Shown: positions 10,145 to 46,158 of the stretch, piece by piece
Layout: every line of letters starts with the position of its first letter
Position numbering within the stretch: position 1 is the first letter of the stretch
Assembly (NCBI GenBank): GCA_965263025.1
Contig: OZ253578.1
Location: 879,614-943,613, forward strand
DNA length: 64,000 nt
Source: Chloroflexota bacterium
Lineage (GTDB): Bacteria; Chloroflexota; UBA11872; VXNJ01
Direction of reading: 5' to 3'
Notes under the pieces: generated by a model
Databases searched by the model: none
What the model saw: the letters and a program-made list of their open reading frames with translations, nothing else
What the model was told of the DNA's origin: nothing
Translations under genes and position numbers: made by a program

Positions 10145-10743
10145 GGGCCCGGATTCAGCCGCAGACTCACGGTGGTTCCCCAGCCGACGAGATCTCGCTC
10201 CTCGATTTCGTTCTCGCAGTCGCGCTGGCGTTCGTCCCCCTGGCACAACCGAACCGCTACGGCGGCGGGATCGGTCCATTCGCCGGGAATACCCTCTAAC
10301 CAGTCGCCCAGATCAACGTTGATCCTGACCCTGGCGCGCCGAAACGCGCTCCTTCCATCCGAATGTGTCGCCGTTACGAACACAAGATTTACGTCGCCGA
10401 CCGAGGCGCCATCGAAATAAGCGGTCGTAGTCGCCAGCCCATTGCCATCCGTCGAATTTGTGAAGCTGTGCAAGAGCGGCGGGTTCGCCGGTCCCCTGAT
10501 CCGGCCAAACACTTCATAGTGAATTTCGACCCCCGACGCGGGAACCGTGGAACCATCTGCAAGCCGTTCCACAACATGCACGGTTACGAAGAGCCGGGAC
10601 CGCGGATCGATGGTCTCGCCGCACGCGCCGCCAACAACGGCTACGACCGAAAGCAGTGCAATCGATAGCGCCAGCAAAACCACGTCCGGCGCCGCCGCGA
10701 CTCGGCTGCGCCTCCCGTCAGCGACCCGCCGTCTACCGAGCAA
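10141..10743 (-). CDS. putative lipoprotein (start uncertain)
   Basis: The ORF-track entry 10141..11004 overlaps the neighbouring gene. An internal TTG at 10743 gives an Arg-rich n-region, the hydrophobic LLALSIALLSVVAVVGG and lipobox Cys (GGAC), then a beta-rich domain. Confidence 0.45.
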   Translation of the reverse strand: MLGRRRVADGRRSRVAAAPDVVLLALSIALLSVVAVVGGACGETIDPRSRLFVTVHVVERLADGSTVPASGVEIHYEVFGRIRGPANPPLLHSFTNSTDGNGLATTTAYFDGASVGDVNLVFVTATHSDGRSAFRRARVRINVDLGDWLEGIPGEWTDPAAVAVRLCQGDERQRDCENEIEERDLVGWGTTVSLRLNPGP

Positions 10744-10802
10744 ACCGCGACAAATCACCGAAAGACCCGCCGCGAACAACCGGTAAGCCGGTCTTGCTAG
10801 AG

Positions 10803-12059
10803 CTACGTGGCGACGGCGGCTTCCATTAGCTCCGCCCGGTTTGAGCTGACCTTTTCGATTGCCTCGGCAATGCCGTCCATTGCCGAGCGGTCGGCGAGCA
10901 GCACCGACTGGCCGATCCACATAGTCTCTTCGCGGCACAGCCACTCCGAGTTCGGGCAACGCATCGATCCGTAATCGACGTCGACCGCTCCCTCGCGCGG
11001 CCACGCGTCTTGAAGATCGACTTCCGGCTCAAGGAAGAGCGGTTGGTCCCGGCAGTCGCGCTTGTAACCCGTCGATACTGGCACGCCTTCGGCCGCCAAC
11101 GCCTCGGCGAACTGTTCCCGAGGAAGTCCGTCGAACGCGTCTTGCTGATATCTGAACGTGTAGATGTGATAGGAGTTTCGGGTCACGTAGGGATCGTGAC
11201 GCAGGGGGATGACTCCCTCGATCCCGCCGAGCAGCTCGTTTAGATAGTCGCCGTTGGACGAGCGATGCGCCGCCTGCTCTTCCAGAAGGTCAAGATTGGC
11301 GTCCAGCAACGCCGCTATCACTTCAGAGATCCGATAGTTCCACGACAGATAGCGAAAGACTCCCGTCCGCTCCCTGATGGAGCCTGCCCACAGATCGTGG
11401 TAGTCCACCGAATTCCAGTAGAGCGTCTCGTCGTCGGTCAATACGATTCCGCCCTCGCCGCCGGTAAGGTTCTTGGCCGGTCCGAGGCTGAAGGCGCCTA
11501 CGTCCCCGATCGTTCCCAGGCCCTTGCCGTTCCACGTTCCACCATGGGCGTGCGAGCAGTCCTCGATGACCTTGAGATTGTGTTCGCGCGCGATTTCTAG
11601 GATCGGTCCCATGTCGCACGGCAAACCACCGAAGTGCACGGTCATAATCGCCTCGGTGCGATCCGTGATAGCCGCCTTGATCTTGGACGGGTCGATATTG
11701 TACGTCTCCAGATCGACGTCAACGAAGATCGGAACGCAGCGAGCCATCAGAATGGATGTCGCGCTCGCCATGAAGGTGAAGGGCGACAGGATTACCTCCG
11801 CGCCCCGCGTGAGATTCAAGCTGCGCAAACCGACCTCAAGGGCGGCGGTCCCGCTGCTGACGGCAAGACCGTAGGCCGCCCCCTGGTACTTGGCAAAACG
11901 ATCTTCGAAACGGCGCGACCGCTCCCCGTTGCCCCGAGACCACTGATTGCCTCGCAGCACTTCCTCGACCGCTCTCATGCCGCCCGCGTCCACCATGGGC
12001 CACTTGGGCCACGATCCGCTGCAAACAGGTGTGCCGCCCGTAAGTGCCAGATTGCCCAT
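10803..12059 (-). CDS. DegT/DnrJ/EryC1/StrS family PLP-dependent aminotransferase
   Basis: GTAALEVGLRSL, FSLGPAKNLTGGEGG (PLP Lys) and family-typical length. ATG 12059 has AGGAG upstream; the track starts at TTG 12083. Confidence 0.85.
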   Translation of the reverse strand: MGNLALTGGTPVCSGSWPKWPMVDAGGMRAVEEVLRGNQWSRGNGERSRRFEDRFAKYQGAAYGLAVSSGTAALEVGLRSLNLTRGAEVILSPFTFMASATSILMARCVPIFVDVDLETYNIDPSKIKAAITDRTEAIMTVHFGGLPCDMGPILEIAREHNLKVIEDCSHAHGGTWNGKGLGTIGDVGAFSLGPAKNLTGGEGGIVLTDDETLYWNSVDYHDLWAGSIRERTGVFRYLSWNYRISEVIAALLDANLDLLEEQAAHRSSNGDYLNELLGGIEGVIPLRHDPYVTRNSYHIYTFRYQQDAFDGLPREQFAEALAAEGVPVSTGYKRDCRDQPLFLEPEVDLQDAWPREGAVDVDYGSMRCPNSEWLCREETMWIGQSVLLADRSAMDGIAEAIEKVSSNRAELMEAAVAT

Positions 12060-12486
12060 ACCGCCTGACTCCTGGGTCTTCAAAAAAGGAAACGATTTGG
12101 ACGATTATTGCACCAAACGAGGATCGGGGCGCATTGATCCCGCTCGCCTGATAAAAGCCGATATCCACATACAACTGATATGGAGTGACCGGATATCAAA
12201 TAGTTCCGGCGGTGACCGTGGCGACCGGGATCCGAGACGGGGAAGGATGGACGAGCGAGGCTGAGAGATTTTTCGGGGCTATGGCTTCGTCATTTCGGCG
12301 TTGAGCCGGAATCGAGGTTCGGACCGCCAGCGTCTCAGTCATCGCGTCTGGTGACGTGCGTCTGAAATTTCTCGCGTGCGCTCAGAATCGCGCATGGGGA
12401 TGCGGAATTACTTGGGGGATCGGAGTCTGCGGCTGGAGTGAGTTCCCGGACTGTACTTAGCCTGGGCGACTGGGCCGTTTCATCCT

Positions 12487-13587
12487 CTATGCAGTGGGCA
12501 TTTTGTCCGAAGCCAGCAAGGTGCTGAGCCGTTCCCGCAGATGGTTGCTGAGGTTGAAAATGTCATCGATCGAGTCGATGGGATGTCTAACCCTCTGGCC
12601 AGACGCATCCATGATGCCGACCTGTTTGTCTGCTGTGTTGAACCACATGCGGCAGATATTCTTACGATTATTGTCGTCCAATAGAACTGTGCAGAACGAC
12701 TTTTGATCGCGCATGGAAATGCGCTTAGAGTCTACTATGTCTCTGAGAATCGCCTTGACAACGTTGTACCCCTCAATCTCCTCGATTGTGGTGATGATCC
12801 CGCTGTCATCCTCGGCCACAACGGACGTCTCCTGGTCGGTGGTTTCTTCGGCAGGCGCGGACTCAGACGCCTGCTCCCGTTCGAGGGCGGATTTCAGTCT
12901 GTCGTTGATGCGGTCGTTAATGAACTGGTCAAACGCGCGCTTCGTGAGGTCAGCAAATTGCTCGCGAACGGCCTTCGTCCGGCGCCCTTTGTAGACTTGG
13001 GAAATAATAAACAAAACGAAGTCCTGATACGGTCGGCGAGTTTGATCCGCCAGAACCCGCTTGATCTCCTTTGTGTACATAAGGTCGGCAGCTGCTTCGA
13101 TTGTCTGGGACAAATCGAATGACTGCTTGGTGAACCGCTTAAGCTCGTCGACGGTGTGCGGTGAAAAATTCAGGATATCGAACTCAAAGAACGGTCGTTC
13201 ATCCATGCGGTTCGGCTCGTCGAGATCGGAGTAGAAGCGATAGATGACTCCGTTCGTTAGAACGCCGAACCTAGTGTCAGTAGTCGTGAAATACCGGTAG
13301 AGTTGCGAAGCGTGCTTCTCCGTTAATTCGGAGGCGACATGCTTACACTCGAACACCATAATGGATCTGCCATCTTTTATGATGGCGTAGTCGACCCGTT
13401 CGCCTTTCTTGTTGCCAACGTCAGCCGTGAACTCGGGTACGACCTCTGTCGGGTCGAACACGTTATAGCCCAACGCATTGATGAACGGCAGCACAAAGGC
13501 CGTTTTGGTGGCCTCCTCAGTTTGTGTGTGGTCGAGGAGACGTTCGACGCGGGCGGCAAGCGAGCGGAGGTGGTCAATGAGATCCAT
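12487..13587 (-). CDS. type I restriction enzyme HsdR N-terminal-like (PD-(D/E)xK) domain protein; orphan
   Basis: N-terminal TEEATKTAFVLPFINALGY...VDYAI...FECK gives a D...E-x-K nuclease core of HSDR_N type. The C-terminal EEIEGYNVVKAIL...LLDDNNRKNICRMWF module is seen in stand-alone proteins of this type. The DNA is AT-richer. Confidence 0.7.
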   Translation of the reverse strand: MDLIDHLRSLAARVERLLDHTQTEEATKTAFVLPFINALGYNVFDPTEVVPEFTADVGNKKGERVDYAIIKDGRSIMVFECKHVASELTEKHASQLYRYFTTTDTRFGVLTNGVIYRFYSDLDEPNRMDERPFFEFDILNFSPHTVDELKRFTKQSFDLSQTIEAAADLMYTKEIKRVLADQTRRPYQDFVLFIISQVYKGRRTKAVREQFADLTKRAFDQFINDRINDRLKSALEREQASESAPAEETTDQETSVVAEDDSGIITTIEEIEGYNVVKAILRDIVDSKRISMRDQKSFCTVLLDDNNRKNICRMWFNTADKQVGIMDASGQRVRHPIDSIDDIFNLSNHLRERLSTLLASDKMPTA

Positions 13588-23032: not shown

Positions 23033-23291
23033 GGCCGATGTCGGAGTCGCGACCCCTGCGACAGACATCTCAAGAGCTTGCGGGATAGCGCTCGTTGAAA
23101 GTTCGGGGCGGCGGAGTCACGGCCACCGGAACCGATCGCGCAATCCGGGAATCGGCGCGCTCGTAGTGCGCTTGTCCAGCGCGGCCCTGAACGCCGCCCT
23201 CGATGCCGGGAATAAAAAGATCGGCGCCCGGACTTTGCCCGGGCGCCGATCTGATTGCGAGTTTTAGTAGCCGCTAACGCGGCGCTTTGTT

Positions 23292-23615
23292 CTAGTAGCG
23301 GTCCCCTCCATATCCACCTGATCCATATCCACCCGATCCACCCGATCCACCCGAACCTGAACGCTGCCTCGGCTGGCGCGGACGCGCTTCGTTTACAGTC
23401 AGCGGCCGCCCATCAAGGACTGTGCCGTTGAGCGACTCGACGGCGGCTCCGGCCTGATCCGAGTTGTCCATCGCCACGAACCCGAATCCGCGCGAACGTC
23501 CGGTTATCCGATCGGTCACAACCGTTGCCCGGCTAACGTCCCCAAATCGCTCAAACATCTCTCTCAACGACTCGTCACTAGTGTCGTAAGAGAGATTTCC
23601 CACATATATTTCCAT
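23292..23615 (-). CDS. RRM-type RNA-binding protein with a Gly-rich tail
   Basis: RNP2 IYVGNL, RNP1 RGFGFVAM, C-terminal SGGSGGSGGYGSGGYGG. Confidence 0.9.
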   Translation of the reverse strand: MEIYVGNLSYDTSDESLREMFERFGDVSRATVVTDRITGRSRGFGFVAMDNSDQAGAAVESLNGTVLDGRPLTVNEARPRQPRQRSGSGGSGGSGGYGSGGYGGDRY

Positions 23616-24034
23616 GCTCTATGAACTCATTTCTCCCGGTGGCTCCGCACCGCATTCGATCCCTTTCGCACCCCATAACCCTGTATGGGAACTTTGCGAA
23701 AATATCGTGATAATCCCGTCTTGTGCGTTCTTCTGCGGTGTTGAATTGAAGGAGGGTGACCCAGCTCAGCCCAGAGCCGCAACTCGCGGGCGGCCTGGAG
23801 GGGTTCCGCATAATCACTCAACGCACCGCGCCGTAGCGCAGTTCGACTGTAGGAGTGTAACATGCCTCTACTGGCCGGTGGCGCGGGGCGGGTTGGAATC
23901 GCCAAGAGAACTCGGTGGACCGCGTCGGCAGAGTCAGGTGCTACTCTGTCTGTGATGAATTCGACTCTATTCTTACGCCTTCGCCCGCGCCATGCTCCTG
24001 TAAAGTCTGGCGCCCTGCGCCAACCGTCCGACCA

Positions 24035-24964: not shown

Positions 24965-25003
24965 CTTGCATCCGGCGACGGCAGCCGGCGGGCGCCACGA
25001 CTG

Positions 25004-25993
25004 ATGCGCTTCGCGCGACTCGGAAACACAGGCGTCGAAATATCGAGAATCAGCCTGGGCACGGGTTTCTTCGGCGGAGCTATTCCCGAAGCGGAGTGCC
25101 TGCGGATACTGACCAGGGCGCTGGACCTCGGCATCAACGTAATCGATACGGCGGAGAAATACCTCCGGCCAACCCCCGGCGCCAGCGAAACGACTCTGGG
25201 GAGGATCCTGCGCGGCCGCCGCGACGAAGTCTTTCTCGCCACCAAGGTCGATCCAACCGGCGACCGCAGTGGTGAGCCGTCCGGCTGCGGACTCAGCCGC
25301 GCAATGGTCATAAGCGCCGTCGAAAGCAGTCTCCGGCGGTTGCAGACCGATTGTGTCGATCTCGTCTATGCGCACGCGCCTGATCCCGGAACTCCGCTCA
25401 GCGAGACGCTGTCCGCGTTCGATCATCTCATCGAGGCGGGCAAGATTCGCCACGCGGGACTCTCGAATCACCCGGCTTCCCTGGTTGCCGAGGCGCTGTC
25501 GGTGGCCGACCGCCTGGACTTGGGGCCGGTCGTCGCCACGCAGGACTTGTACAACCTGATGGAGCGCCGAAACGAAGCCGAGCTCTATCCCCTGTGCAGG
25601 CGGCGCGGTCTGGCAACCTTCGCCTACGCGCCGCTGGCCGGCGGACTCCTGACCGGAAAGTACACCCACGACATGGCCGGCGGCGATTCGGTTCCGTCGT
25701 CGTACCGGGCCGGCTACTTCGAGCGCGTCACCGACGAGTCCGGAGAAGCGTCGTCCGCGCCAAAGGTCACCGGCGGCGCGATCAGCCGCGCGGCGCGCAT
25801 AGCGAATTGGGCTGGAGAACGCGGTTACGATCCGGCTCACACCGCGCTGGCCTGGGTGCTCGGCAATCCCGACGTAACATCCGCCGTCATCGGCATAACC
25901 AGGCTTGACCAGCTCGAAAGAAACTCCGCGGGCTTCGATCTGGTCCTCTCGGATTCCGAACGAACCGAACTCTCCAACATCGCAGGCCGTTAG
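25004..25993 (+). CDS. aldo/keto reductase
   Basis: MRFARLGNTGVEISRISLGTGFFGG, IDTAEKY, GLSNH. Confidence 0.85.
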   Translation: MRFARLGNTGVEISRISLGTGFFGGAIPEAECLRILTRALDLGINVIDTAEKYLRPTPGASETTLGRILRGRRDEVFLATKVDPTGDRSGEPSGCGLSRAMVISAVESSLRRLQTDCVDLVYAHAPDPGTPLSETLSAFDHLIEAGKIRHAGLSNHPASLVAEALSVADRLDLGPVVATQDLYNLMERRNEAELYPLCRRRGLATFAYAPLAGGLLTGKYTHDMAGGDSVPSSYRAGYFERVTDESGEASSAPKVTGGAISRAARIANWAGERGYDPAHTALAWVLGNPDVTSAVIGITRLDQLERNSAGFDLVLSDSERTELSNIAGR

Positions 25994-26259
25994 CGAATCG
26001 GGTGTATGACCGATTTGTCGTGGACGGCAACGCGAAAATACCGTGATTGATAGACGACAGTGTCTAGCTCTGCTTCGGGCCTCCGCAACCGCTCCGTCTA
26101 TCTGGGTCTCCAGGAAACCAGAGTTGCCGCGGTAGCGGGGAGATACCGAACTAGACACGGCAGAGGGGAGCGGACGTCAGACGTGCTAGAAGGAGAATAT
26201 GACTTGTTCGCGACGAATATCTCAATGCAACTAGCGTTAGCCACGAATACGTTTGTCCC

Positions 26260-29200
26260 TTACAGCCCGTATACCTCTTCATCCCGCTCCCGTTCCAATT
26301 CTTGGTCGATTAGGCTAGAGGAAATATCACATCCCGCCCGCCCCACGGCGGCGATCTCCGAATCCTCAGATTCAGCCAAACCCTCAAAGTAACCGAGCTT
26401 CGTTTTTAGGTTGTCTGAATAAGGACCTGACTCTACGATCGGAACCCCAGGCCACATGATCACTCTTGCAATGCGCTCAGGTGTCCAGCCGACGGCACAA
26501 GCGACCCTGATCTTCGCCTCGGAAACGCTCCCGAAACCCGCTTCATGCACTGCGCCCGGGTGATCCATCGCCAGCAATTGCTGGAATAACGAAGGATCGT
26601 CTCCGACAAGTTCCGAGACGATCCATGCTGCGAAGAAGCATGCATCTGTCGTCTCTATAACCGACAGCGCGTCAATTCGTTGATCCGCCGAAAGGTTATT
26701 GAAGGCGTCACTTAACGTATGTTCAAGAGCATAGGCGTTTTGTAACGCGTCGGATCTGAGGAGCGAAATTAACCACTCGGCGAACAGATCCGTCTCATGC
26801 TCAAAGATATCTGAAATGAATAGATCTACTCCGGGCGCGCGCAACATTGCCGCCCGCCAGTCTTCGACGAGATCGTCCGAAACGCGCGGGCTCCTGTTGG
26901 GTTTCCAAAGATGGACTGCCGTCGTCTCCGCGACATCGGGTGAAAGATGAGCCAGCAACTGGCGAACGGTTCGTTTGGGAATCTGCCCTCGAGCAACCAG
27001 GGTAGCGAGTCCGCCACGGAATTGAGGTGCTAGATCAAGCGTCGCTTCCATTTCCTCTTCAAGCGGATCGTCCGCAGTGAGAACGACCGACATTGCCGCA
27101 AACTGCACGGTCTCCAGCGTCAGCGCGCGCAGCGTCAAAGGAAGCGCCCCTTCACGGTCCTTCAACCGCGACTCCCGCAGCAATGGCTCAACCAACATCC
27201 ACGTCAACCCCAGGTCAACCGCTCGCTCAGCCCATGCGTATGGATCAGCAGCACGTGCGGCAATCGCTTGAGTGACTGTCAGAGTTTCGTCGGGCAAAGT
27301 GCGTCCAGTTTCCGCAGCATTGCAGTTGGCATTCAGAATGAGGGGAAGAACATAGTCAGGACCACGCGGCTCAAGATCAGCGGCTAAGCGGCGTGCGGCC
27401 TCGCTCCTACGAGCCGACTCCTTTTCGAAATCGTCGGAAGATTGGTGAATTGGATAGAGCGTCGCAAACAGGTCTGGAATCCTGACGGCTACGCCAAGAT
27501 CAGCCCTGTGCGATAGCTCGCGGATGCGTATGAGAATGCCCGGATGTTCCGAGAACTTGTCAGCTAGGTCCGCGGCCATCGCCGAAGCATGTGATCGCAT
27601 AAATTCCCCTATGCGTTCGGGAGGCGACTCTGGCAAGATCGCGTAAAAGGCCCAGTTGTGCAGCATCTCGAAGAGCGATGACCAATTCTGAGGACCTTGC
27701 GCTGGAATGGCGTCCAGAACAGCCGGCCACAGTTGGACAAGCCCATCCAGACACGTACGCGATGCTAGTCCACTTGTGATGGTGAGTGACAACCCTGAAC
27801 CTGGGTCCGAGGTGGCGGAATCAAATCTTGGACTCATCGCCAAACACAATGCACGAAGCGCGGTCTGGGGATCGCCATTATCAGCCAAGTATCTCATCGC
27901 GGCTGTAGTCAGCAGCTTCCGGCGTTCGAGCTGCAAATTTTCGTAATGTGGAGCGGACTCAATCCACCGTTTTACGATTCCGAGTAGACCATCATCTGAG
28001 TCCCTTATCTGGTCATCTTCTGCGGCCTGCCTAAGGGACAGAGAAAGCGTCTCTGCTGGATTCGTCTCGAGCGAATAAGGCGCGATTTCCTTCAGCCCTT
28101 CGGGGTGTGCCGCAAGGGCGAATTGCGCCTGTCGCTCTCCAAGCCGCGAATACTGCGCAAAGTCTTTGGCTAGTCCGCTGCGGCAGAGTATCGGCTCGAT
28201 CGTATTCTTCGGGATTTGCGCGCCCATGAGGATTGCGCCAACCAGTGAGCCTACGATTGACCGCTCATCCAAGCGTTCCATCACGGGATCCAACGGGAGA
28301 TTTCGATAGGTTTCTGATGAGAAAAAAGCGTCCCCGACAATTGCGTACCGCAATTGAAACGGCCATATAGTGGCTTTCCCTGTCAGGGAGCCGGCCCGAA
28401 TCACCCCCGTGTGGCCTAAACCTGTCAATATGCGACGAACCTTGCCCATATCCAACTCAAGTATCGAACGAATATCTTCAAGTGAAACGCCGCCGTCATC
28501 CGTCAGCGCCGCGACGGCCAGAATCGTGTCCGCCTCGTCATCAATTAGGGTTCTGATTTTGTTAAGCAGCGATGCACCAGAGAAGAGCGAACCATAATCG
28601 CCGCGCGAAGCAAGATCGCATAGCGTGGCGGTCAGTCCGGGGCGGCCGCCTGACTGGTTGACAATGGTCCGCTGTAGATCGACGGGGCCGCCAATCCCAG
28701 CCGCCTTGACGATTTCCAGAACTTCGTCACGAGAGAGCAATTGCAGGTCGAGAACCGAATCGCCGCTGACACCGAGAGCTTGCAACACTCCTTCCTTGTC
28801 CCCCGGCCAAGTCACGGCGGAGATACGAAACTCGGCATGTATATCGGCTCGAATCTGCCGAACGCTGCGCAATAAATCCAGATCACCGTGAGCATCGTCG
28901 AGGACTACAACTTCCGGTGTTAACTCGCGTATGTCATTCGCAATCCTTCCTCTATCTGGATCGACCACGAACAACCAGCCGCGATCAACAAACTGCCTAA
29001 GCAGGTGCGTCTTTCCCGAAGCCGGATGTCCCGAGATGACGACGTCGCCTGAGCTCTCGACTAGCCATTGGACATCCGCATCACGTCCAACTAGGGGAAG
29101 GTCGCTCTGAAGCCGCGACGACAACGGAACGGCGGAAAGTGCGGAAGGCGCGCCGCTGAGACCAAGCAAATCACGGGTCCACTTAGGCGACCCGTACAGC

Positions 29201-29598
29201 AGATCTGCAAACGCCCGCTGCCCGTGGAGATTTACCAGTTGGAAGCCCTCGTCGTCTGCTGCCTTGCGCAAATCCTCATGCAATGACCCTGTTGCGGGTT
29301 GGCTGGTCGCAACAACCACGCGCCATGCAGCGATGCTCGAACTTTGGCGTCTATGGCTTCGAAGACTATCAACCAAATTTCGTTTGACGTTCTGCGCTGT
29401 CGTCGCGGTAAGGAAGAACGGGGCGTCAGGACTCGACGTGTCGATCCCGTCCATACCAAGGTCACGTCCGCCCTCGACTGGCGTTAAATTCGGGTAAAGG
29501 CACCGAAGAAGATCCTGCGCGCAATGCTCAAATGCCGCCGGATCCAAACATCCAGCCAAGCCGTTCAGAATTGACTTGTAGAGCGGGTCCCGTATCAC
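26260..29598 (-). CDS. STAND-like P-loop NTPase (1112 aa) with an N-terminal Mrr-like segment and a long helical C-terminal region; candidate antiviral STAND (Avs-like)
   Basis: aa ~25-70 read FEHCAQDLL...GGRDLGMDGID...FFLTATT (Mrr-cat-like G-x-D-x-G-x-DGID). Walker A is GHPASGKT (nt 29008..29031) and Walker B is VVVLDDAH. About 800 aa of helical-looking sequence follow. GTG start. The gene and its upstream region are AT-richer than the flanks. Confidence 0.65.
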   Translation of the reverse strand: MIRDPLYKSILNGLAGCLDPAAFEHCAQDLLRCLYPNLTPVEGGRDLGMDGIDTSSPDAPFFLTATTAQNVKRNLVDSLRSHRRQSSSIAAWRVVVATSQPATGSLHEDLRKAADDEGFQLVNLHGQRAFADLLYGSPKWTRDLLGLSGAPSALSAVPLSSRLQSDLPLVGRDADVQWLVESSGDVVISGHPASGKTHLLRQFVDRGWLFVVDPDRGRIANDIRELTPEVVVLDDAHGDLDLLRSVRQIRADIHAEFRISAVTWPGDKEGVLQALGVSGDSVLDLQLLSRDEVLEIVKAAGIGGPVDLQRTIVNQSGGRPGLTATLCDLASRGDYGSLFSGASLLNKIRTLIDDEADTILAVAALTDDGGVSLEDIRSILELDMGKVRRILTGLGHTGVIRAGSLTGKATIWPFQLRYAIVGDAFFSSETYRNLPLDPVMERLDERSIVGSLVGAILMGAQIPKNTIEPILCRSGLAKDFAQYSRLGERQAQFALAAHPEGLKEIAPYSLETNPAETLSLSLRQAAEDDQIRDSDDGLLGIVKRWIESAPHYENLQLERRKLLTTAAMRYLADNGDPQTALRALCLAMSPRFDSATSDPGSGLSLTITSGLASRTCLDGLVQLWPAVLDAIPAQGPQNWSSLFEMLHNWAFYAILPESPPERIGEFMRSHASAMAADLADKFSEHPGILIRIRELSHRADLGVAVRIPDLFATLYPIHQSSDDFEKESARRSEAARRLAADLEPRGPDYVLPLILNANCNAAETGRTLPDETLTVTQAIAARAADPYAWAERAVDLGLTWMLVEPLLRESRLKDREGALPLTLRALTLETVQFAAMSVVLTADDPLEEEMEATLDLAPQFRGGLATLVARGQIPKRTVRQLLAHLSPDVAETTAVHLWKPNRSPRVSDDLVEDWRAAMLRAPGVDLFISDIFEHETDLFAEWLISLLRSDALQNAYALEHTLSDAFNNLSADQRIDALSVIETTDACFFAAWIVSELVGDDPSLFQQLLAMDHPGAVHEAGFGSVSEAKIRVACAVGWTPERIARVIMWPGVPIVESGPYSDNLKTKLGYFEGLAESEDSEIAAVGRAGCDISSSLIDQELERERDEEVYGL

Positions 29599-29815
29599 GT
29601 TGGCAGTGGTTGAACCAGTCCGGCGCGAATGGCGTGGAGCCGAATCGCTCGAGTGTTATGAATATAGTTCAAGGGTTTAAATAGGAGTTTAACTCTAGAC
29701 TCTAACGCTCAATAATTCAGGCGTTCAACTGGATAAGTGATAAATCAGTAGGCGCCAACCCGCCCACCGGTCCCTCGGCAGATATACTCGCCTCGGGTAA
29801 TTAGCGGCGTTGTAG

Positions 29816-30733
29816 GTGGAGAGGGTTTCGGAAGTGGTTGTGAGTCAGACGGCGGCGAGGGCGGTAAGTCCCGCGCTTACCGAATCCGACATCGGCGCGT
29901 ACAGACGGGACGGCTGTCTGATCGTCGAAAACGTCTTTGGGGAATCGACGATCGCGCGGCTGCGGCAGGTGGTCGACGAATTCGTCGAAAAATCGCGAAG
30001 CGTCACCGAGCACGACGCCGTATTCGATCTGGAGCCCGGCCACACGGCGGAAAGACCGCTGCTGCGAAGACTCAAAAGCCCGACGCTGAACCATCCGCTG
30101 TTCGAAGAAGTCATGCGTTCGGATTTGCTGGCCGATCTCGTTGAGCCGCTGCTCGGCGACGGCGTTCGCTTTCAGGGTGACAAACTGAATATGAAAACCG
30201 CCGTGGCGGGAAGTCCGGTCGAGTGGCATCAGGACTTCGCCTTTTACCCACACACGACCGACGATCTGCTCGCGGTGGGAATCGCGCTCGACGATTCAAC
30301 CCTGGAAAACGGATGCCTGATGGGAATGTGCGGTTCTCACCTGGGGCCGGTTCTCGATCATCACCAGGACGGAGCATTCATCGGTGCGATCTCGCCGTCA
30401 CGGGAGTCCGTCAACCTGAGCGAGGCCGTACCACTCGAGATCAAGGCCGGCGACGTGACGATCCACCATACAAAGCTGTTGCACGGCTCGGCCTCAAACC
30501 GCTCGTCCGACCCGCGCCGTCTATGGCTGATTCAATACGCGGCCGTTTCCGCGTGGCCTCTCATGGGCGTGCGCGACTTCGACTTCTTCGAATGGTCGCT
30601 GATTCGAGGCGAGCCGACCAGGGAGTTCAAGGTCAAGGACCAAACGGTGCGAGTACCGCTCCCCGGCGCTGTGTACACCGGGGCCACCATATTCGAGCTG
30701 CAAACCAAAGCCAGGGACACCGTATACCGTTAG
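29816..30733 (+). CDS. phytanoyl-CoA dioxygenase (PhyH) family protein
   Basis: YRRDGCLIVENVF, WHQDFAFYP (HxD), HHTKLLHGSASN. Confidence 0.8.
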   Translation: MERVSEVVVSQTAARAVSPALTESDIGAYRRDGCLIVENVFGESTIARLRQVVDEFVEKSRSVTEHDAVFDLEPGHTAERPLLRRLKSPTLNHPLFEEVMRSDLLADLVEPLLGDGVRFQGDKLNMKTAVAGSPVEWHQDFAFYPHTTDDLLAVGIALDDSTLENGCLMGMCGSHLGPVLDHHQDGAFIGAISPSRESVNLSEAVPLEIKAGDVTIHHTKLLHGSASNRSSDPRRLWLIQYAAVSAWPLMGVRDFDFFEWSLIRGEPTREFKVKDQTVRVPLPGAVYTGATIFELQTKARDTVYR

Positions 30734-30847
30734 CCCGCCCCGCGGTGTCTGCGCCACGCGGTATTGATAGAGCAGACCGCACCCTTTTAGCCCGCGTTGA
30801 ACTGACACTACGCCCGGCCGGCAACACTTCCCGACGGGGACCGGCGT

Positions 30848-32599
30848 CTAGGCCGATTCTTTCCGCGAGCGCCGCCTGCCGCGCTCGGCTTCAGTGGCGG
30901 CAGCGTCCACTTCCATCGACTCGGGAACGATAACGACCCCGTAGTCTTCGAGGGCCGTCGCGCGGCTTATCAGTCCGTTGCACACGTCGTCCAGCACCAG
31001 CGCGGGGACGCGTTCCAGCGGATCGCCGTATCCGCCGCCGCCGGGCGTGAACAGCCGCACCACGTCACCCGGCGTCAGCATGATGTTGCTGTCCTTTGTG
31101 AGGTGCGGACTTATGTAGCGTCGGCCCTGCCGGTTGAACTCGATGTGACATTTCTTGCCGTCCGAGCCGCCTTCGATCCCGCGCGGCGCGAATTTCCCGC
31201 GATCGCCAATCGTCGAGGCGGTTCCTTCACCCCTGACGAACTCGGTCTCGATCACCGCTCCGAAGCCTCCCCGCCATTTGCCCGCGCCCGCCGACTCCTC
31301 CCGCAGCGCGAACTCTCGAATCCGCACCGGATAACGCTGCTCGTAAAGCTCAACCGGTTGAGAGCGCGCCACGCTGATAACCGGACTTCCGTAGCTCAAA
31401 CCGTCTCCATCGGCATGTCCGCCATAGCCGCCGCCGTTGAACATGTACATCACGTAGCCGCCGACCTCGCAATCCGTGCCGCCGATCGACAGGTTCGAGA
31501 TCGTCCCGAATATCCCCGCCGAAACCCGTTCGGGAATCGCCTGTCCGAGCGCTCCCATCACAACGTCGCCTACACGCTGAGACACTTCGGACGCGCAACC
31601 CGCCACGGGCCGCGGCAGCCGCGCGTTGAGAAACGTCGAATGGGGTACGTGAAACTGAATCGGCGTGAAACACCCCGAATTAACCGGGATCTCGGGGAAC
31701 ACGTGCTTGAACGCCAGAAAGCAGGCCGACTTGGTCGTGCTTATCACGCTGTTCATAGGCCCCCGGCAGGGTGGTGAGCTACCCGAAAAATCAAGCAACG
31801 CCCCGCTGCCCTCGATCGTCAGCTTCAAAGCGATTTTCAGGGGGCGGTCCTCGATTCCATCGCTATCCATAAAGTCTTCGTACTCATAAACGCCGTCGGG
31901 TATTTCCTCCAGAAACGACCGCATCTGGCGTTCGGACCGCTGTTTCAAACTCTCGATGCAGGCCCAGACCGTTTCGACGCCGTATCTGTCAAGCAGCGTG
32001 GTCAACCGGCGCTCGCCTACCGTGAAGGCCGAGAGATGGGCTTGCAGATCGCCCGATCTTTCCTCCGCCACCCTTATATTCGAGGTAATGATCCGGAAAA
32101 CGTCTTCGTCGAGCGCGCCCCGCTTGAACAGCTTTACCGGCGGAATTCGAAGCCCCTCCTGGTAGACCTCGCTCGAATTGGCGCCGAATCCTCCGGGGAC
32201 GGATCCGCCCATGTCCGGCCAGTGACCGCGATTAGCCAGATAGGCGAATAGCTCGCCGTTGTAATAGAAGGGCTTCACCATCCCAACGTCCATCAGATGG
32301 GTCCCGCCGGAGTAGGGATCGTTGACGAAGAAGATGTCCCCAGGCTCGATTCCCCGTCTGGCAACCTCCGCAATCACATGCTCGGTGGTGAACTGCATCA
32401 CGCCAATGAAAAGCGCCAGGCCCCATTTACCCTGAACGATCACCTCCCCGGTGACGGGGTGGTAAATGCCGTTGGCCAAGTCGTTGCCCTCCGAGATGAC
32501 CGGCGAAAACGCCGTCCGCTTCAACGTCCAGTCCATCTCCTCGGCGATTTCCTCGAGCGCGCCCTTCACCACCGCCAGCGTCAACGGATCGACTGTCAT
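30848..32599 (-). CDS. hyuB: hydantoinase B/oxoprolinase family protein
   Basis: N-terminal DPLTLAVVKGALEEIAEEMDWTLKRTAFSPVISEGNDL and family length. A 4-nt ATGA overlap joins it to the upstream partner. Confidence 0.85.
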   Translation of the reverse strand: MTVDPLTLAVVKGALEEIAEEMDWTLKRTAFSPVISEGNDLANGIYHPVTGEVIVQGKWGLALFIGVMQFTTEHVIAEVARRGIEPGDIFFVNDPYSGGTHLMDVGMVKPFYYNGELFAYLANRGHWPDMGGSVPGGFGANSSEVYQEGLRIPPVKLFKRGALDEDVFRIITSNIRVAEERSGDLQAHLSAFTVGERRLTTLLDRYGVETVWACIESLKQRSERQMRSFLEEIPDGVYEYEDFMDSDGIEDRPLKIALKLTIEGSGALLDFSGSSPPCRGPMNSVISTTKSACFLAFKHVFPEIPVNSGCFTPIQFHVPHSTFLNARLPRPVAGCASEVSQRVGDVVMGALGQAIPERVSAGIFGTISNLSIGGTDCEVGGYVMYMFNGGGYGGHADGDGLSYGSPVISVARSQPVELYEQRYPVRIREFALREESAGAGKWRGGFGAVIETEFVRGEGTASTIGDRGKFAPRGIEGGSDGKKCHIEFNRQGRRYISPHLTKDSNIMLTPGDVVRLFTPGGGGYGDPLERVPALVLDDVCNGLISRATALEDYGVVIVPESMEVDAAATEAERGRRRSRKESA

Positions 32600-44597: not shown

Positions 44598-45098
44598 TCA
44601 ATCAGCCAACCGATTAAGACGAATAGCCAATTCACGCTTTGAGACGGGACATCTCGGATCGTCCTGCATCGCTTTAAGCGTCGTGACGACCTGGGTTGCC
44701 GGCAAGATTCCGGCGGTATCCATTTTGTCGATGCCCCACAGGGTACCGTGATGAGGGATGCCTTCTGACCGAGCGAAGCTACGCATGACCCTGTCGTCCG
44801 TGAGGAGCTCCCATCCCTGCTGCTTAGCCAAGGCAAGAGCGAATGAATCTACCAAACTCAGGGCCTGCCGCCTCGACTGAATGGAGATTGCCATTGTTAC
44901 CCCTTCCGTATCCAGAGCTTCAACCTTGAGGCCAAAGCTGAGCAAGTCCTGTCGGCTGTACACACCCAAGTCAATTAGTTCCTCGTCGAACAGCAAGTCT
45001 GGAACCGCGAATTGGAACCTTAACTCGAACATCTTGTCCAGCAGTTCGCGCTTGGCGAACTCGATCAATACGGAACTGTCGCTGACGAGGACCTTCAC
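44598..45098 (-). CDS. PIN-domain protein (COG2405/DUF3368-like)
   Basis: MKVLVSDSSVLIEFAK (Asp7), SLVDSFALALAK, LLTDD acidic residues. It lies 13 nt downstream of the XRE-M78 gene on the same strand. Confidence 0.7.
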   Translation of the reverse strand: MKVLVSDSSVLIEFAKRELLDKMFELRFQFAVPDLLFDEELIDLGVYSRQDLLSFGLKVEALDTEGVTMAISIQSRRQALSLVDSFALALAKQQGWELLTDDRVMRSFARSEGIPHHGTLWGIDKMDTAGILPATQVVTTLKAMQDDPRCPVSKRELAIRLNRLAD

Positions 45099-45111
45099 GT
45101 CTATGCGATCC

Positions 45112-46158
45112 TCATTTACCCCCCATAATGCGCTCGATTTCGCTGATGGGCAGTCTGAGCAACTCGGCCGCCTTGGACATTGAAATCACTCTCTCTTCCA
45201 ACGCTCTCAAACAGAGACGGCGAAAGCGCCTGGGAGCCTCCGTTCGCTTAAGGCCGCGTGGCTCGTCCTTTCTCCAACCTCGTCCGATGCCGCGGAAAAT
45301 TCCCACCATCGTCGCTTTGGTGATAATTCCCAGGTCACGCATTCGCACTACCAGAGCTGCGGCGCTGACGCCGAATATGTGCTTGATCTCGAAGAGTTCG
45401 CCGAGACCGAAACTGACACGCCGGTGACCTACTTCACGCATAAGCTCTTCTCGGGGTACCAGGAAAGCACCGGCAAACCTTTGGCATGCTTTCTCGGTAG
45501 ACACTCCCGTCGGAATGTCCAGGACCATGTGGCCTAGTTCGTGAGCGATGGTCAACCGCTGACGCTCTATGGATTTCGTGGAGGAGCAGACCACTACCGG
45601 CACGTCGTCTCCATCTACACGATGGACGTGGCAGGTGAGTCCGTCCACCGACTCAGGTAGGCCCACTTTGAAGACCTTGATCCCACGTTCCTCAAGCAGT
45701 TCAGTCATATTCGAAATCGGATCGCCGCCGAGATTCCAGGCCTTGCGAACTGACATGGCGATTTGCTCGGCGTCTTCTATGGCGTCGATGCTATAAGGCG
45801 CGCCGTCGGGTCTATCCTGCCTGCCGCTATCGATGCCCAGCAGTTCCTCCAATTGGAGATAGCGATCCATGATATCGAGCACATCCGCCTCGACCGCCGC
45901 CCGCTCCCTAACCTTGGTTGAAGCCAGCTTTCTGAACTCAACAGACTCCAAAGAGACCTTCGAAGGGCTAAAGAGGTAGCTCATGGAAACGTCGAGAGCC
46001 TTTGCCAAAGCAAGCGCTACGGTTGAGCTAGGCATCATCTCGCCGCGCTCATATTTGCCGATAGCCTGGGCTGTAACGATGCCCCCAATGCGTGAGGACA
46101 ACGCCCGGAGCGATAGGCCACTGCGTTTTCTGGCGAGCTTGAGACGTTCGCTGAACAT
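45112..46158 (-). CDS. XRE-family HTH fused to an ImmA/IrrE (M78, COG2856) zinc metallopeptidase
   Basis: N-terminal LKLARKRSGLSLRALSSRIGGIVTAQAIGKYERGEMMP (HTH_3) and HELGHMVL (HEXXH). ATG 46158 has AAGGAGG upstream. Confidence 0.85.
   Translation of the reverse strand: MFSERLKLARKRSGLSLRALSSRIGGIVTAQAIGKYERGEMMPSSTVALALAKALDVSMSYLFSPSKVSLESVEFRKLASTKVRERAAVEADVLDIMDRYLQLEELLGIDSGRQDRPDGAPYSIDAIEDAEQIAMSVRKAWNLGGDPISNMTELLEERGIKVFKVGLPESVDGLTCHVHRVDGDDVPVVVCSSTKSIERQRLTIAHELGHMVLDIPTGVSTEKACQRFAGAFLVPREELMREVGHRRVSFGLGELFEIKHIFGVSAAALVVRMRDLGIITKATMVGIFRGIGRGWRKDEPRGLKRTEAPRRFRRLCLRALEERVISMSKAAELLRLPISEIERIMGGK

What the first reader, a model, noticed from the sequence alone, without database searches (positions are those of the whole stretch)
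26160..29815. Solitary 1112-aa STAND-like NTPase with an Mrr-like N-terminal segment: candidate single-gene antiviral sensor
The protein has three parts. (1) An N-terminal domain of ~150 aa contains FEHCAQDLL...GGRDLGMDGID...FFLTATT. This resembles the Mrr catalytic-domain strand pattern but lacks an obvious Q/E-x-K, so it may be a divergent or different effector fold. (2) A P-loop NTPase has GHPASGKT and VVVLDDAH. (3) About 800 aa of helical-looking sequence follow. This effector-NTPase-sensor layout matches antiviral STAND (Avs-like) and related NLR-type defence proteins. The gene and its very AT-rich 200-bp upstream region are compositionally distinct. It sits alone, inserted between aldo-keto reductases and a PhyH gene, consistent with horizontal acquisition. 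The N-terminal domain and the sensor region may be undescribed variants.
Basis: partly seen in the sequence, partly recalled or inferred. Interest (0 to 1): 0.7.

Follow-up and report, generated by a model that had tools for sequence, protein, structure and literature searches.

The report
Avs-like STAND sensor, lysine-less Mrr domain
This is a real, single 1112-residue gene built like the known bacterial antiviral "Avs" receptors (nuclease-fold head, ATP-driven switch, long helical sensor); it belongs to a large unnamed family whose nuclease-like head has lost the usual catalytic lysine in every member examined, so how it acts is unclear.

Summary
The ORF is real: window 26260-29598, minus strand, 1112 aa, GTG start. 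The public gene call starts 48 codons too late. Confident AlphaFold models show three parts: an Mrr-family PD-(D/E)xK fold (aa 1-150), a P-loop module with helical and winged-helix domains (171-430), and a ~680-aa alpha-solenoid. The best fold matches are Avs3 and Avs4 (E ~1e-9). The family is large (at least 1,340 representatives at 50% identity), uniformly ~1,110 aa, and unnamed. It has no above-threshold Pfam match, and no PADLOC AVAST model matches.

Homologues sit at different loci, often beside RM, GmrSD, McrB, HEPN, toxin-antitoxin or integrase genes. Here the gene has foreign composition (GC3 0.58 vs 0.71-0.76) and sits among metabolic genes.

The Mrr motifs F-E and D-x-G-x-D are invariant, but Q-x-K is (V/I)-x-T. 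Thr66 replaces the critical Lys in 184 of 185 members, yet this is the most conserved domain.

Caveat: by sequence profile the NTPase aligns better with AAA+ RuvB than with STAND MalT. The STAND label rests on architecture, fold and motifs.

Verdict: a new family of a known kind (Avs-like NLR) with a non-canonical effector. The defence role is inferred.

The parts
26260..29598 (-). Complete gene, 1112 aa plus stop codon, GTG start at 29598
   Evidence: Homologues at ~30% identity align from residue 1 (MIRDPxY...), which supports the GTG start over the public call at M49.
29149..29598 (-). N-terminal Mrr-family PD-(D/E)xK-fold domain, aa 1-150 (alpha-alpha-beta-beta-beta-alpha-beta-alpha-beta-alpha-alpha)
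   Evidence: AF2 model pLDDT 86, pTM 0.80. Foldseek: MspJI 4f0q E 2e-3 and Avs4 8dgf E 3e-3, both probability 1.0. hhalign to EcoKMrr. Mrr_cat weak in 16 of 28 members. PADLOC Aga_REase-TIR matches aa 17-115 in 12 of 43 members. Most conserved domain, 47% mean pairwise identity.
29527..29532 (-). Mrr motif I, F23-E24
   Evidence: F23 173/173; E24 165/173 with Gln in 8. Motif definition from PMC2790908.
29449..29463 (-). Mrr motif II, D46-x-G48-x-D50 (catalytic Asp D50 plus the Mrr-specific supplementary Asp D46)
   Evidence: D46 174/174, G48 175/175, D50 185/185. Aligns to GDGGID of EcoKMrr. D-x-G-x-D is a synapomorphy of Mrr enzymes.
29401..29409 (-). Position of Mrr motif III (Q-x-K), here T64-A65-T66; family consensus (V/I)-x-T
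   Evidence: T66 184/185; position 64 is V/I in 163/186. D50-to-T66 spacing is 16, the same as LlaGI D78-to-K94. No position in aa 1-150 has K+R at 85% or more.
29377..29379 (-). Invariant N74 at the start of the helix after beta-3
   Evidence: 185/185. Role unknown.
28699..29088 (-). P-loop nucleotide-binding domain, aa 171-300: G171-R172 motif, Walker A G190-T197 (29008-29031), Walker B V230-H237 (28888-28911) with invariant D234-D235, invariant R250 and W264
   Evidence: AF2 shows a five-stranded core. Sub-threshold Pfam hits: AAA_16 32/43, nSTAND3 20/43, nSTAND5 8/43.
28543..28698 (-). Helical (lid) domain, aa 301-352, with Q315...G318-(R/K)319-P320-G321-L322 'GxP' motif (28630-28656)
   Evidence: Q315 185/186, P320 181/186, G321 186/186. 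Helices 306-349.
28309..28542 (-). Winged-helix domain, aa 353-430
   Evidence: AF2: H354-364, H373-380, H384-395, strand 408-411, H414-425. Aligns to the RuvB winged-helix domain in hhalign.
26263..28308 (-). C-terminal alpha-solenoid, presumed sensor, aa 431-1112, with one beta-hairpin pair at aa 591-611 and invariant W624
   Evidence: AF2 pLDDT mostly above 85. Foldseek matches to Avs3/Avs4 over the full length and to CAND1, karyopherin and HEAT/ARM solenoids. Least conserved region, 27.5% mean pairwise identity.
29599..29815 (.). Divergent spacer between the STAND gene and PhyH, with an AT-rich core at about 29651-29750; presumed promoter region
   Evidence: 50% GC overall and 34% in the core, the lowest in the window. 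The only sigma-70-like match is on the + strand (29689-29716) and is no more than chance would give.
25994..26259 (.). Downstream spacer (convergent with AKR2), no recognisable terminator or insertion scar
   Evidence: No Rfam match in 25000-31000.

Best explanation
The gene encodes a single-polypeptide, NLR-like (Avs-like) intracellular receptor acquired horizontally. Inferred mechanism, by analogy with solved Avs3, Avs4 and Avs7: the C-terminal alpha-solenoid binds a foreign (most likely phage) protein. This releases autoinhibition of the NBD-HD-WHD module, which binds ATP and oligomerises. Oligomerisation brings the N-terminal Mrr-family domains together, and they deliver the output, most likely an attack on or tight binding of DNA that aborts infection. 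Shown here: the three-domain anatomy, the fold relationships, the family-wide conservation pattern, the foreign composition, and the non-syntenic, often defence-linked neighbourhoods. Inferred: ligand, oligomerisation and output. The effector is not a canonical Mrr nuclease. Motifs I (F-E) and II (D-x-G-x-D) are invariant, but the motif III Lys is an invariant Thr. The output is therefore either Lys-independent metal-dependent hydrolysis or a non-catalytic activity of a still strongly constrained site.
For: Architecture and fold: full-length AF2 model pLDDT 89.3, pTM 0.77. Foldseek top hits are Avs3 8dgc E 1.8e-9 and Avs4 8dgf E 4.2e-9, then Apaf-1 at about 4e-4. The N-domain alone hits MspJI and the Avs4 nuclease domain. 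Mrr homology: hhalign to EcoKMrr aligns FE, GDGGIDG and ITTS. STAND-type motifs: GR upstream of Walker A, invariant DD Walker B, GxP (P320/G321), a winged helix, no Arg finger and no pre-sensor-1 hairpin. NLR-like conservation gradient: effector 47%, NBD 43.5%, WHD 37%, sensor 27.5%. Family size and uniform architecture: 1,340 representatives at E<=1e-30, and the best 150 listed are near-full-length matches. Mobility and defence context: a type IIG-like RM gene is adjacent in L001. HEPN_RiboL-PSP, GmrSD_C, an integrase and a resolvase are in L004. McrB_N, a DNA methylase, two GmrSD genes and a transposase are in L006. HEPN_Apea, recombinases and a transposase are in L007. TA islands are in L002 and L005. 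Foreign composition in the window: GC3 0.578 vs 0.71-0.76. Mechanistic precedent: Avs4 and Avs8 carry Mrr effectors and degrade DNA on trigger binding (PMC13581612).
Against: No experimental data exist for any member. No PADLOC AVAST or PD-lambda-4 model matches convincingly (0/43 and 1/43 at E 0.002), and all Pfam hits are below the gathering thresholds. The motif III Lys, whose Ala substitution kills LlaGI, is absent family-wide, and no basic residue is conserved in the domain. By sequence profile the NTPase aligns to RuvB (probability 91%, 209 columns) but to MalT only at the P-loop, and the STAND sensor-1 Arg is replaced by an invariant Trp264. In this genome the gene lies among metabolic genes and is fixed in all conspecific assemblies. 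Two or three homologue neighbourhoods show no defence genes. No relatives were found on plasmids, phages or viral contigs.
Confidence: 0.6

Rival explanations
1. It is the same NLR-like sensor, but the Mrr-derived head is a pseudo-nuclease. It would bind metal or DNA, or mediate oligomerisation, without cutting. The output would then come from something else, such as DNA clamping, sequestration of the trigger, or a partner. In one sub-clade the partner could be the co-travelling small 3-TM membrane protein.
For: The motif III Lys is replaced by Thr and Gln by Val/Ile in essentially all members, and no conserved basic residue exists in aa 1-150. K94A abolishes LlaGI cleavage, and motif III mutation is read as inactivation in LlaGI-like genes. 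A homologous ~140-aa 3-TM protein lies immediately upstream in five loci from at least two different neighbourhoods. Avs8 is likewise a two-gene operon with an uncharacterised partner.
Against: The domain is the most conserved part of the protein. Its acidic residues D46 and D50 are invariant and E24 is 95% conserved, which is what catalysis or metal binding predicts and is more than a scaffold needs. PD-(D/E)xK enzymes with the Lys replaced by other residues are known to be active (stated in PMC2790908). The TM partner is absent from the window, from its closest relatives (65% identity) and from distant branches, so it cannot be the general output.
Confidence: 0.25
2. It is a non-defence STAND or AAA+-type signalling or housekeeping ATPase, for example a regulator that uses a nuclease-fold domain to bind DNA, which happens to be compositionally atypical.
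For: In this genome it sits between metabolic genes and is present at the same site in every conspecific assembly, with only 2 SNPs. Some homologue neighbourhoods are purely metabolic. Defence and non-defence STAND clades are interspersed in the superfamily tree (PMC13581612). No defence HMM matches.
Against: Homologues are not syntenic across genera and repeatedly neighbour RM, GmrSD, McrB, HEPN, TA, integrase and transposase genes. GC3 is 0.15 below the neighbours. No HTH or other regulatory output domain is present. The best structural matches are antiviral Avs3 and Avs4. The family has the patchy distribution typical of accessory genes.
Confidence: 0.1
3. The NTPase is a classical AAA+ (RuvB/Cdc6-like) motor rather than a STAND switch, so the protein would act as a hexameric remodelling or translocating machine coupled to a nuclease-fold domain.
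For: hhalign of the family NTPase module against RuvB gives probability 91% and E 1e-6 over 209 columns covering the core, lid and winged helix, whereas MalT aligns only over 48 P-loop columns. Profile hits in PDB sequences are to p97, Clp and FtsH Walker A segments. Foldseek lists Hsp104, RuvB and Cdc6 at 6e-4 to 2e-3.
Against: Walker B is DD in 186/186 members, not DE. No conserved Arg sits at the RuvB Arg-finger position, and no Arg follows the GxP Pro (sensor 2). The pre-sensor-1 hairpin is missing, since R250-A261 is 12 residues in 176/186 members. An N-terminal effector with a C-terminal ~680-aa solenoid is the STAND layout. Avs3 and Avs4 beat all AAA+ hits by five or more orders of magnitude, and Apaf-1 ranks above RuvB. 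nSTAND3, nSTAND5 and AAA_16 are the commonest Pfam hits.
Confidence: 0.05

Closest known systems
Avs4 (antiviral STAND type 4; EcAvs4, PDB 8DGF)
   Same: Same order of parts: N-terminal Mrr-type PD-(D/E)xK domain, STAND NTPase, then a long helical-repeat sensor in one polypeptide. It is the second-best full-length fold match (E 4.2e-9), and its nuclease domain is a top match of the isolated N-domain.
   Different: There is no detectable sequence-profile relationship, since the PADLOC AVAST models are silent. The window protein is ~400 aa shorter. Avs4's Mrr domain is an active nuclease effector, whereas this family lacks the motif III Gln and Lys. The trigger here is unknown, while Avs4 senses portal.
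Avs8 / PD-lambda-4 (Mrr nuclease + P-loop NTPase, senses HK97-fold major capsid protein)
   Same: Mrr-family N-terminal domain fused to a P-loop NTPase and a sensor. It is defence-associated. It has a partner gene of unknown function, reminiscent of the 3-TM partner in one sub-clade here.
   Different: Only 1 of 43 family members touches PD-Lambda-4_A, at E 0.002. Avs8A degrades dsDNA with Mg2+ and ATP. The window's gene is solitary.
Avs3 (SeAvs3, PDB 8DGC) and Avs7
   Same: Best overall fold match (E 1.8e-9). They share the nuclease-STAND-TPR logic and effector activation by tetramerisation.
   Different: The effector in Avs3 and Avs7 is a Cap4-type nuclease, not Mrr. Avs3 is much larger (~2,000 aa).
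Mrr-family type IV/ISP restriction nuclease domains (EcoKMrr, MspJI, LlaGI)
   Same: Same fold, with motif I (F-E), motif II (D-x-G-x-D) and the (T/S)-rich beta-4 strand (ITTS vs VATS) conserved.
   Different: Motif III Q-x-K is (V/I)-x-T. The family adds an invariant Asn74. The domain is fused to an NTPase switch rather than to a DNA-modification reader.
Mrr domain of short-pAgo-associated Mrr-TIR-APAZ proteins (PADLOC Aga_REase-TIR-PNTD1-PNTD2)
   Same: This is the closest REase-domain profile in PADLOC. Twelve of 43 members match it over aa ~17-115 against profile positions 7-106, best E 3.7e-5.
   Different: The match is weak and confined to the domain, and the rest of the architecture is unrelated. 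The catalytic status of that Mrr domain was not found in the literature read.
Apaf-1 / NB-ARC STAND module
   Same: NBD-HD-WHD arrangement. Foldseek gives E ~4e-4 and probability 1.0 over ~510-570 columns. Shares the DD Walker B and a GxP-type motif.
   Different: There is no sensor-1 Arg (Trp264 instead) and no MHD-type His. The sensor and effector are different.

Membership tests
STAND NTPase superfamily (as defined by Leipe, Koonin & Aravind 2004; definition from own knowledge) | Modular layout: effector domain, then NBD followed by a helical domain and a winged-helix domain, then C-terminal superstructure-forming repeats | tested here: met
   AF2 full-length model. Foldseek top hits are Avs3/Avs4, then Apaf-1.
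STAND NTPase superfamily | Walker B with two acidic residues of the hhhhDD type, and a GxP motif in the helical domain | tested here: met
   D234-D235 186/186, P320 181/186, G321 186/186.
STAND NTPase superfamily | Conserved sensor-1 Arg after strand beta-4 (TTR / hhhSR type) | tested here: not met
   The strand reads A261-x-x-W264-P-G. W264 is invariant and no Arg is present.
STAND NTPase superfamily | Above-threshold match to a curated STAND profile, or closer profile similarity to STAND than to AAA+ | tested here: inconclusive
   nSTAND3 scores 17.2 bits against a cutoff of 27.2 in the window protein, and matches weakly in 20/43 members. AAA_16 matches 32/43, nSTAND5 8/43 and NACHT 1/43. 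hhalign prefers RuvB (probability 91%) to MalT (P-loop only).
Avs / AVAST antiviral STANDs (Avs1-5 as modelled in PADLOC 2.0; Avs8 = PD-lambda-4) | Sequence-profile match to the family models | tested here: not met
   PADLOC gives 0 hits for the window protein. No AVAST model appears among the hits of 43 members. PD-Lambda-4_A matches 1/43 at E 0.002. Avs6-21 and the 589 STAND clades of PMC13581612 could not be tested because the supplementary tables are not held.
Avs / AVAST antiviral STANDs | Fold-level similarity of the whole protein to solved Avs structures | tested here: met
   8dgc E 1.8e-9 and 8dgf E 4.2e-9, both probability 1.0. Global TM is only ~0.2 because the domain orientations differ.
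Avs / AVAST antiviral STANDs | Association with defence islands or mobile elements | tested here: inconclusive
   About 4 of 9 independent neighbourhoods have RM, GmrSD, McrB or HEPN genes within 5 kb, and more have TA or integrase genes. The sample is small and the criteria are Pfam-based, so this is not a formal enrichment test.
Avs / AVAST antiviral STANDs | Phage protection and activation by a phage protein | not testable with these tools
   Needs experiments.
Mrr-family PD-(D/E)xK nuclease domain (Pfam Mrr_cat; motifs I-III of Smith et al. 2009, PMC2790908) | Alpha-beta-beta-beta-alpha-beta restriction-endonuclease fold | tested here: met
   AF2 N-domain model. Foldseek hits to MspJI, Avs4, MUS81/XPF, BstEII and McrC.
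Mrr-family PD-(D/E)xK nuclease domain | Motif I F-E and motif II D-x-G-x-D (the supplementary Asp is Mrr-specific) | tested here: met
   F23 and E24; D46, G48 and D50 are invariant. They align to EcoKMrr. Definition.
Mrr-family PD-(D/E)xK nuclease domain | Motif III Q-x-K with the catalytic Lys | tested here: not met
   (V/I)64-x-T66, with T66 in 184/185 members. No conserved K/R in aa 1-150.
Mrr-family PD-(D/E)xK nuclease domain | Pfam Mrr_cat gathering threshold | tested here: not met
   The window N-domain scores 12.2 bits against a cutoff of 21. Sixteen of 28 members match weakly, best E 0.0032.
Classical AAA+ ATPases (RuvB/Clp/p97 type) | Walker B DE with catalytic Glu, an Arg finger, a sensor-2 Arg; for the RuvB clade, a pre-sensor-1 beta-hairpin | tested here: not met
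   Walker B is DD and invariant. No conserved Arg lies opposite RuvB's LRDRFG. GRPGL aligns opposite GTPR. The R250-A261 loop is fixed at 12 residues.

The most novel reading that the evidence does not exclude
The family would represent a distinct effector type for NLR-like immunity. It is an Mrr-derived domain that keeps the metal-binding half of the nuclease site (E24, D46, D50) but has replaced the general-base Lys with an invariant Thr and added an invariant Asn. Three readings remain open. It may catalyse a Lys-independent or different phosphoryl-transfer reaction. Its active site may be completed only in trans on oligomerisation. Or it may act without cleavage, for example as a DNA or metal clamp. 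In any of these cases a very large (>1,300 clusters), unannotated STAND family found so far in Chloroflexota and Actinomycetota would work differently from Avs4 and Avs8.
Probability: 0.3. Interest if true: 0.65.

Novelty: new member of a known kind. Interest (0 to 1): 0.45.

Why it matters
Antiviral STAND/NLR-like receptors are now known to form about 90 or more families that sense core phage proteins, but nearly all characterised ones come from Proteobacteria. This gene flags a large family that no source names, that has no above-threshold Pfam match, and that no PADLOC AVAST model matches. The only organism labels seen are Chloroflexota and Actinomycetota, and most members come from metagenomes. 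It therefore widens the catalogue for phyla whose phage defence is poorly studied.

The effector is the more specific point. The family keeps the Mrr signature motifs but has dropped the catalytic Lys, while conserving this domain more strongly than any other part of the protein. That makes a clean natural test of whether Mrr-type effectors can work without the Lys, or whether they have been repurposed. The T66K and T66A mutants are simple to make.

There is also a practical consequence. The public annotation starts the gene 48 codons late, which removes motif I and part of motif II. Automated domain scans of the deposited protein will therefore miss the effector.

Tried and rejected
- Single-sequence and profile searches against PDB sequences gave only generic Walker A matches. 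For the N-domain profile they gave expression-tag artefacts (MASMTGGQQMGRD...), which I discarded.
- Single-protein PADLOC and NCBIfam scans gave nothing.
- The search for related loci with alignment A1 failed because no stretch was conserved enough. With the single protein it found only one species-representative genome, a Chloroflexota MAG.
- The empty-site test through PhyH relatives in metagenomes failed. The closest relatives are at most 57-60% identical over the best segment, none keeps the AKR-PhyH-hydantoinase neighbourhood, and none carries a STAND hit, so the test is uninformative.
- The empty-site test through exact AKR2 look-up returned only conspecific assemblies, all of which carry the gene.
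- Repeating the large protein search with the diverse alignment A4 returned the same 56 proteins.
- Searching with the N-domain profile returned only truncated members of the same family and no new architecture.
- Cluster look-ups gave no names or organisms beyond 'hypothetical protein'.
- No flanking direct or inverted repeats suggest a transposon or integration scar, and there are no Rfam hits.
- Promoter and terminator scans were at chance level.
- There were no matches in plasmid, phage or viral-contig collections.
- The supplementary tables of the 2026 STAND census are not held, so placement among its 589 clades could not be checked.
- I considered and rejected a general two-gene system, because the small TM partner is restricted to one sub-clade.
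- I considered and rejected RuvB-clade AAA+ membership (see rivals).
- The mad8, PDC and PtuA PADLOC hits are P-loop-only similarity.

Full report
**1. Observation**

The window contains one long ORF on the minus strand, 29598 to 26260, of 1112 codons with a GTG start.

The neighbours are two aldo-keto reductases on one side. On the other side are a PhyH-family dioxygenase and then hydantoinase B and A, so the setting is entirely metabolic.

The gene is compositionally foreign. Its GC is 0.561 and its GC3 is 0.578, against GC3 0.71-0.76 for each neighbour. Only 3% of equal-length windows in the 64 kb have lower GC.

The 217-bp upstream spacer is 50% GC overall, so 'very AT-rich 200 bp' overstates it. 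Its ~100-bp core (about 29651-29750) is 34% GC, the lowest value in the whole window.

There are no flanking repeats, structured RNAs or convincing promoter or terminator matches.

**2. True start**

The identical public protein (P0001) is 1064 aa, which means it starts at Met49 inside the GMDG motif. All conspecific assemblies carry the same call.

Homologues down to ~30% identity align from residue 1 (MIRDPxY...FERCA...). The GTG at 29598 is therefore the real start. The deposited annotation removes motif I and part of motif II of the N-terminal domain.

**3. Family**

The word-indexed search found 57 relatives, all unnamed. The exhaustive profile search found far more: 2,528 representatives (50% identity clusters) at E<=1e-3 and 1,340 at E<=1e-30. 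The best 150 listed are near-full-length matches; most are ~1,100-1,140 aa, and a few are truncated or start at profile position 49.

The only organism labels seen are Chloroflexi/Chloroflexota MAGs, a Pseudonocardiaceae MAG, and Streptomyces for truncated copies. There are no relatives on plasmids, phages or viral contigs.

**4. Anatomy**

AlphaFold2 models built with the family alignment are confident. The N-domain model has pLDDT 86 and pTM 0.80. The full-length model has pLDDT 89.3 and pTM 0.77. The parts are:

- **aa 1-150:** an alpha-alpha-beta-beta-beta-alpha-beta-alpha-beta-alpha-alpha domain.
- **aa 171-300:** a five-stranded P-loop core.
- **aa 301-352:** a four-helix lid.
- **aa 353-430:** a winged helix.
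- **aa 431-1112:** an alpha-solenoid with a single beta-hairpin pair at 591-611.

Mean pairwise identity across 186 members falls from 47% (N-domain) through 43.5% (NBD), 43% (lid) and 37% (winged helix) to 27.5% (solenoid). This is the gradient expected for a receptor with a conserved output and a diversifying sensor.

**5. N-terminal domain**

Foldseek places the N-domain with MspJI (E 2e-3) and the nuclease domain of Avs4 (E 3e-3), both at probability 1.0. MUS81/XPF, BstEII and McrC follow, and all are PD-(D/E)xK folds. Pfam Mrr_cat matches 16 of 28 members weakly.

hhalign against genuine EcoKMrr aligns three segments:

- F-E.
- VGGTGDGGIDG with VEGGRDLGMDG.
- FITTSGFT with VVATSQPAT.

Smith et al. 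2009 (PMC2790908) define the Mrr motifs as follows:

- Motif I is F-E.
- Motif II is D-x-G-x-D, where the extra Asp is a synapomorphy of Mrr enzymes.
- Motif III is Q-x-K.

In LlaGI, D74A, D78A and K94A are each completely inactive.

In this family F23, D46, G48 and D50 are invariant, and E24 is 95% conserved. The motif III position is (V/I)64-x-T66, and it lies the same 16 residues after the catalytic Asp as in LlaGI. T66 is present in 184 of 185 members and N74 in 185 of 185. No position in aa 1-150 reaches 85% Lys+Arg.

The domain is therefore an Mrr-family homologue that fails one defining catalytic feature. That loss is an ancient, fixed family trait under strong constraint, not decay in this one gene.

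The closest REase profile in PADLOC is the Mrr domain of the short-pAgo-associated Mrr-TIR-APAZ protein. It matches 12 of 43 members over aa 17-115, best E 3.7e-5.

**6. NTPase module**

The conserved features are:

- G171-R172 upstream of Walker A.
- Walker A GxPxxGKT.
- Walker B hhhhD234-D235-A-H, invariant in 186 of 186.
- R250, W264 and R290.
- Q315...G-(R/K)-P320-G321-L.
- R417 in the winged helix.

Pfam gives only sub-threshold hits: AAA_16 in 32 of 43 members, AAA_22 in 28, nSTAND3 in 20, nSTAND5 in 8, AAA in 7 and NACHT in 1.

Full-length Foldseek puts Avs3 (8dgc, 1.8e-9) and Avs4 (8dgf, 4.2e-9) first. Apaf-1 follows at about 4e-4, then Hsp104, RuvB and Cdc6 at 6e-4 to 2e-3, and HEAT/ARM solenoids for the C-terminus.

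As a control I ran hhalign with the family's aa 160-440 profile against three E. coli proteins:

- **RuvB (AAA+):** probability 91%, E 1e-6, over 209 columns.
- **MalT (STAND):** only 48 P-loop columns.
- **ZnuC (ABC):** only the P-loop.

This is real evidence against a tidy STAND label, and I report it as such. The same alignment, however, shows that RuvB's pre-sensor-1 hairpin is absent. The R250-A261 loop is fixed at 12 residues in 176 of 186 members. RuvB's Arg-finger segment has no conserved Arg opposite it. RuvB's sensor-2 GTPR lies opposite GRPGL.

Taken together with the DD Walker B and the effector-NTPase-solenoid layout, I classify the module as STAND-type. Two deviations remain: there is no sensor-1 Arg, and there is residual profile affinity to RuvB-like AAA+.

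**7. Genomic context**

Within the species the gene is fixed at this site, with only 2 SNPs. Across the family it is not syntenic. The neighbourhoods seen were:

- **P0011 and P0021:** a variable island with RHH, ParE, HigB, HTH_3, Uma2 and Fic genes. In P0011 a convergent type IIG-like RM enzyme is also present.
- **P0003:** integrase, resolvase, HEPN_RiboL-PSP, GmrSD_C and transposase fragments.
- **P0002:** recombinases, integrase, HEPN_Apea and a transposase.
- **P0057:** McrB_N, a DNA methylase, two GmrSD genes, a resolvase and a transposase.
- **P0013:** PIN/PhdYeFM and HEPN_Toprim_N.
- **P0069:** a bpMoxR/VWA cluster.
- **P0054:** an integrase fragment.
- **P0004 and P0045:** metabolic genes only.

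About four of nine independent neighbourhoods have bona fide restriction or HEPN genes within 5 kb. That is far above the ~1.5% background quoted by Lee et al. 2026. My sample is small and the criteria differ, so this is supportive rather than formal evidence.

**8. Mechanism**

By analogy with the solved Avs3, Avs4 and Avs7 complexes and with Avs8 biochemistry, I propose the following. The solenoid binds a foreign protein. The NBD-HD-WHD module binds ATP and oligomerises. The clustered Mrr-derived domains then deliver the output.

The anatomy, conservation, fold relationships, composition and context are shown here. The ligand, the oligomerisation and the output are inferred.

The output step is the weak point. 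The Lys whose mutation kills LlaGI is absent. Yet E24, D46, D50, T66 and N74 are better conserved than anything else in the protein, which argues for a working metal-binding or catalytic site. The LlaGI paper notes that the Lys is exchanged for an acidic residue in some active type II enzymes.

I give the overall Avs-like defence model 0.6 confidence. Within that model, an active non-canonical hydrolase and a pseudo-nuclease remain comparably likely, so the pseudo-nuclease is listed as a rival at 0.25.

**9. Comparison with the known, and novelty**

Effector-STAND-TPR receptors with Mrr effectors are established (Avs4, Avs8). A 2026 census lists 589 STAND clades, 198 of them defence-associated, and 684 sensor clusters. 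The kind is therefore known.

No PADLOC 2.0 AVAST model matches the family, it has no above-threshold Pfam match, and no source names it. I could not check it against the census tables, which are not held. I rate it a new member of a known kind.

The family-wide Lys-to-Thr effector is the one feature that could raise it to a real variant. I put that at probability ~0.3.

**10. Other things seen**

- A ~140-aa predicted 3-TM protein travels immediately upstream of the STAND gene in five loci of one sub-clade, but it is absent from the window.
- The orthologue in the Chloroflexota MAG OZ253558.1 is split into two ORFs.
- The window has a genuine defence island about 15 kb away, at 44.6-50.7 kb. 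It holds a PIN protein, an HTH-ImmA/IrrE protein, a Schlafen/AlbA_2 protein and an MmeI-type RM enzyme.

Noticed in passing
window 29455-29598 (codons 1-48 of the gene): The public gene call for this protein (P0001, 1064 aa, and the same call in three conspecific assemblies) starts at Met49. This cuts off motif I (F23-E24) and Asp46 of the Mrr-like domain. Several family representatives in the big search also begin at profile position 49, so the mis-call is recurrent.
   Followed up: yes
L001 8638-9060, L002 9536-9958, L003 7437-7877, L005 59-499, L008 9427-9864: A small (140-146 aa) predicted three-TM protein with no Pfam match lies immediately upstream on the same strand as the STAND gene in five loci from at least two different neighbourhoods. 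The copies are 68-91% identical to each other. It is absent from the window, from the 65%-identity relatives and from distant branches. It may be a sub-clade-specific partner or effector.
   Followed up: partly
L008 9992-13377 (Chloroflexota MAG OZ253558.1): The 60%-identical orthologue is split into two overlapping ORFs (9992-11866 and 11833-13377). This is either a frameshifted pseudogene or an assembly error.
   Followed up: no
window 44598-50673: The window's second low-GC stretch is a genuine defence island. It holds a PIN-domain protein (44598-45098-), an HTH_3 + ImmA/IrrE M78 peptidase protein (45112-46215-), a Schlafen/AlbA_2 protein (46512-47768+) and a 925-aa MmeI-family type IIL restriction-modification enzyme (47896-50673-). 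It lies about 15 kb from the STAND gene.
   Followed up: partly
window 27766-27828 (aa 591-611) and aa 624 / 649: The only beta structure in the ~680-aa solenoid is a hairpin pair at aa 591-611. It is followed by an invariant Trp624 and a nearly invariant Trp649. This could be a ligand-binding or autoinhibitory element.
   Followed up: no
window 23292-23615 (minus strand): A 107-aa RRM_1 RNA-binding protein gene also has low GC3 (0.583) compared with its neighbours. The 23250-24000 stretch has strongly negative GC skew.
   Followed up: no
window 1-400 and about 1850-2050, 51590-51700: Further AT-rich stretches: 3.3-kb windows starting at 1-400 have the lowest GC in the window, and 100-bp minima of 0.35-0.39 occur at about 1860, 2030 and 51600. 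I did not examine them.
   Followed up: no
L090 1-7758 (contig carrying P0069): A distant family member sits next to a bpMoxR AAA + VWA/DUF58 cluster (a MoxR-vWA type conflict system by Pfam naming) and a TatD DNase. The 144-aa ORF just upstream of the STAND gene has no Pfam match.
   Followed up: no
family NTPase module, aa 160-440: hhalign aligns the module to E. coli RuvB across the core, lid and winged helix (probability 91%) but to MalT only at the P-loop. The family may therefore sit near the STAND / AAA+ boundary and could be informative for the evolutionary relationship of the two classes.
   Followed up: partly
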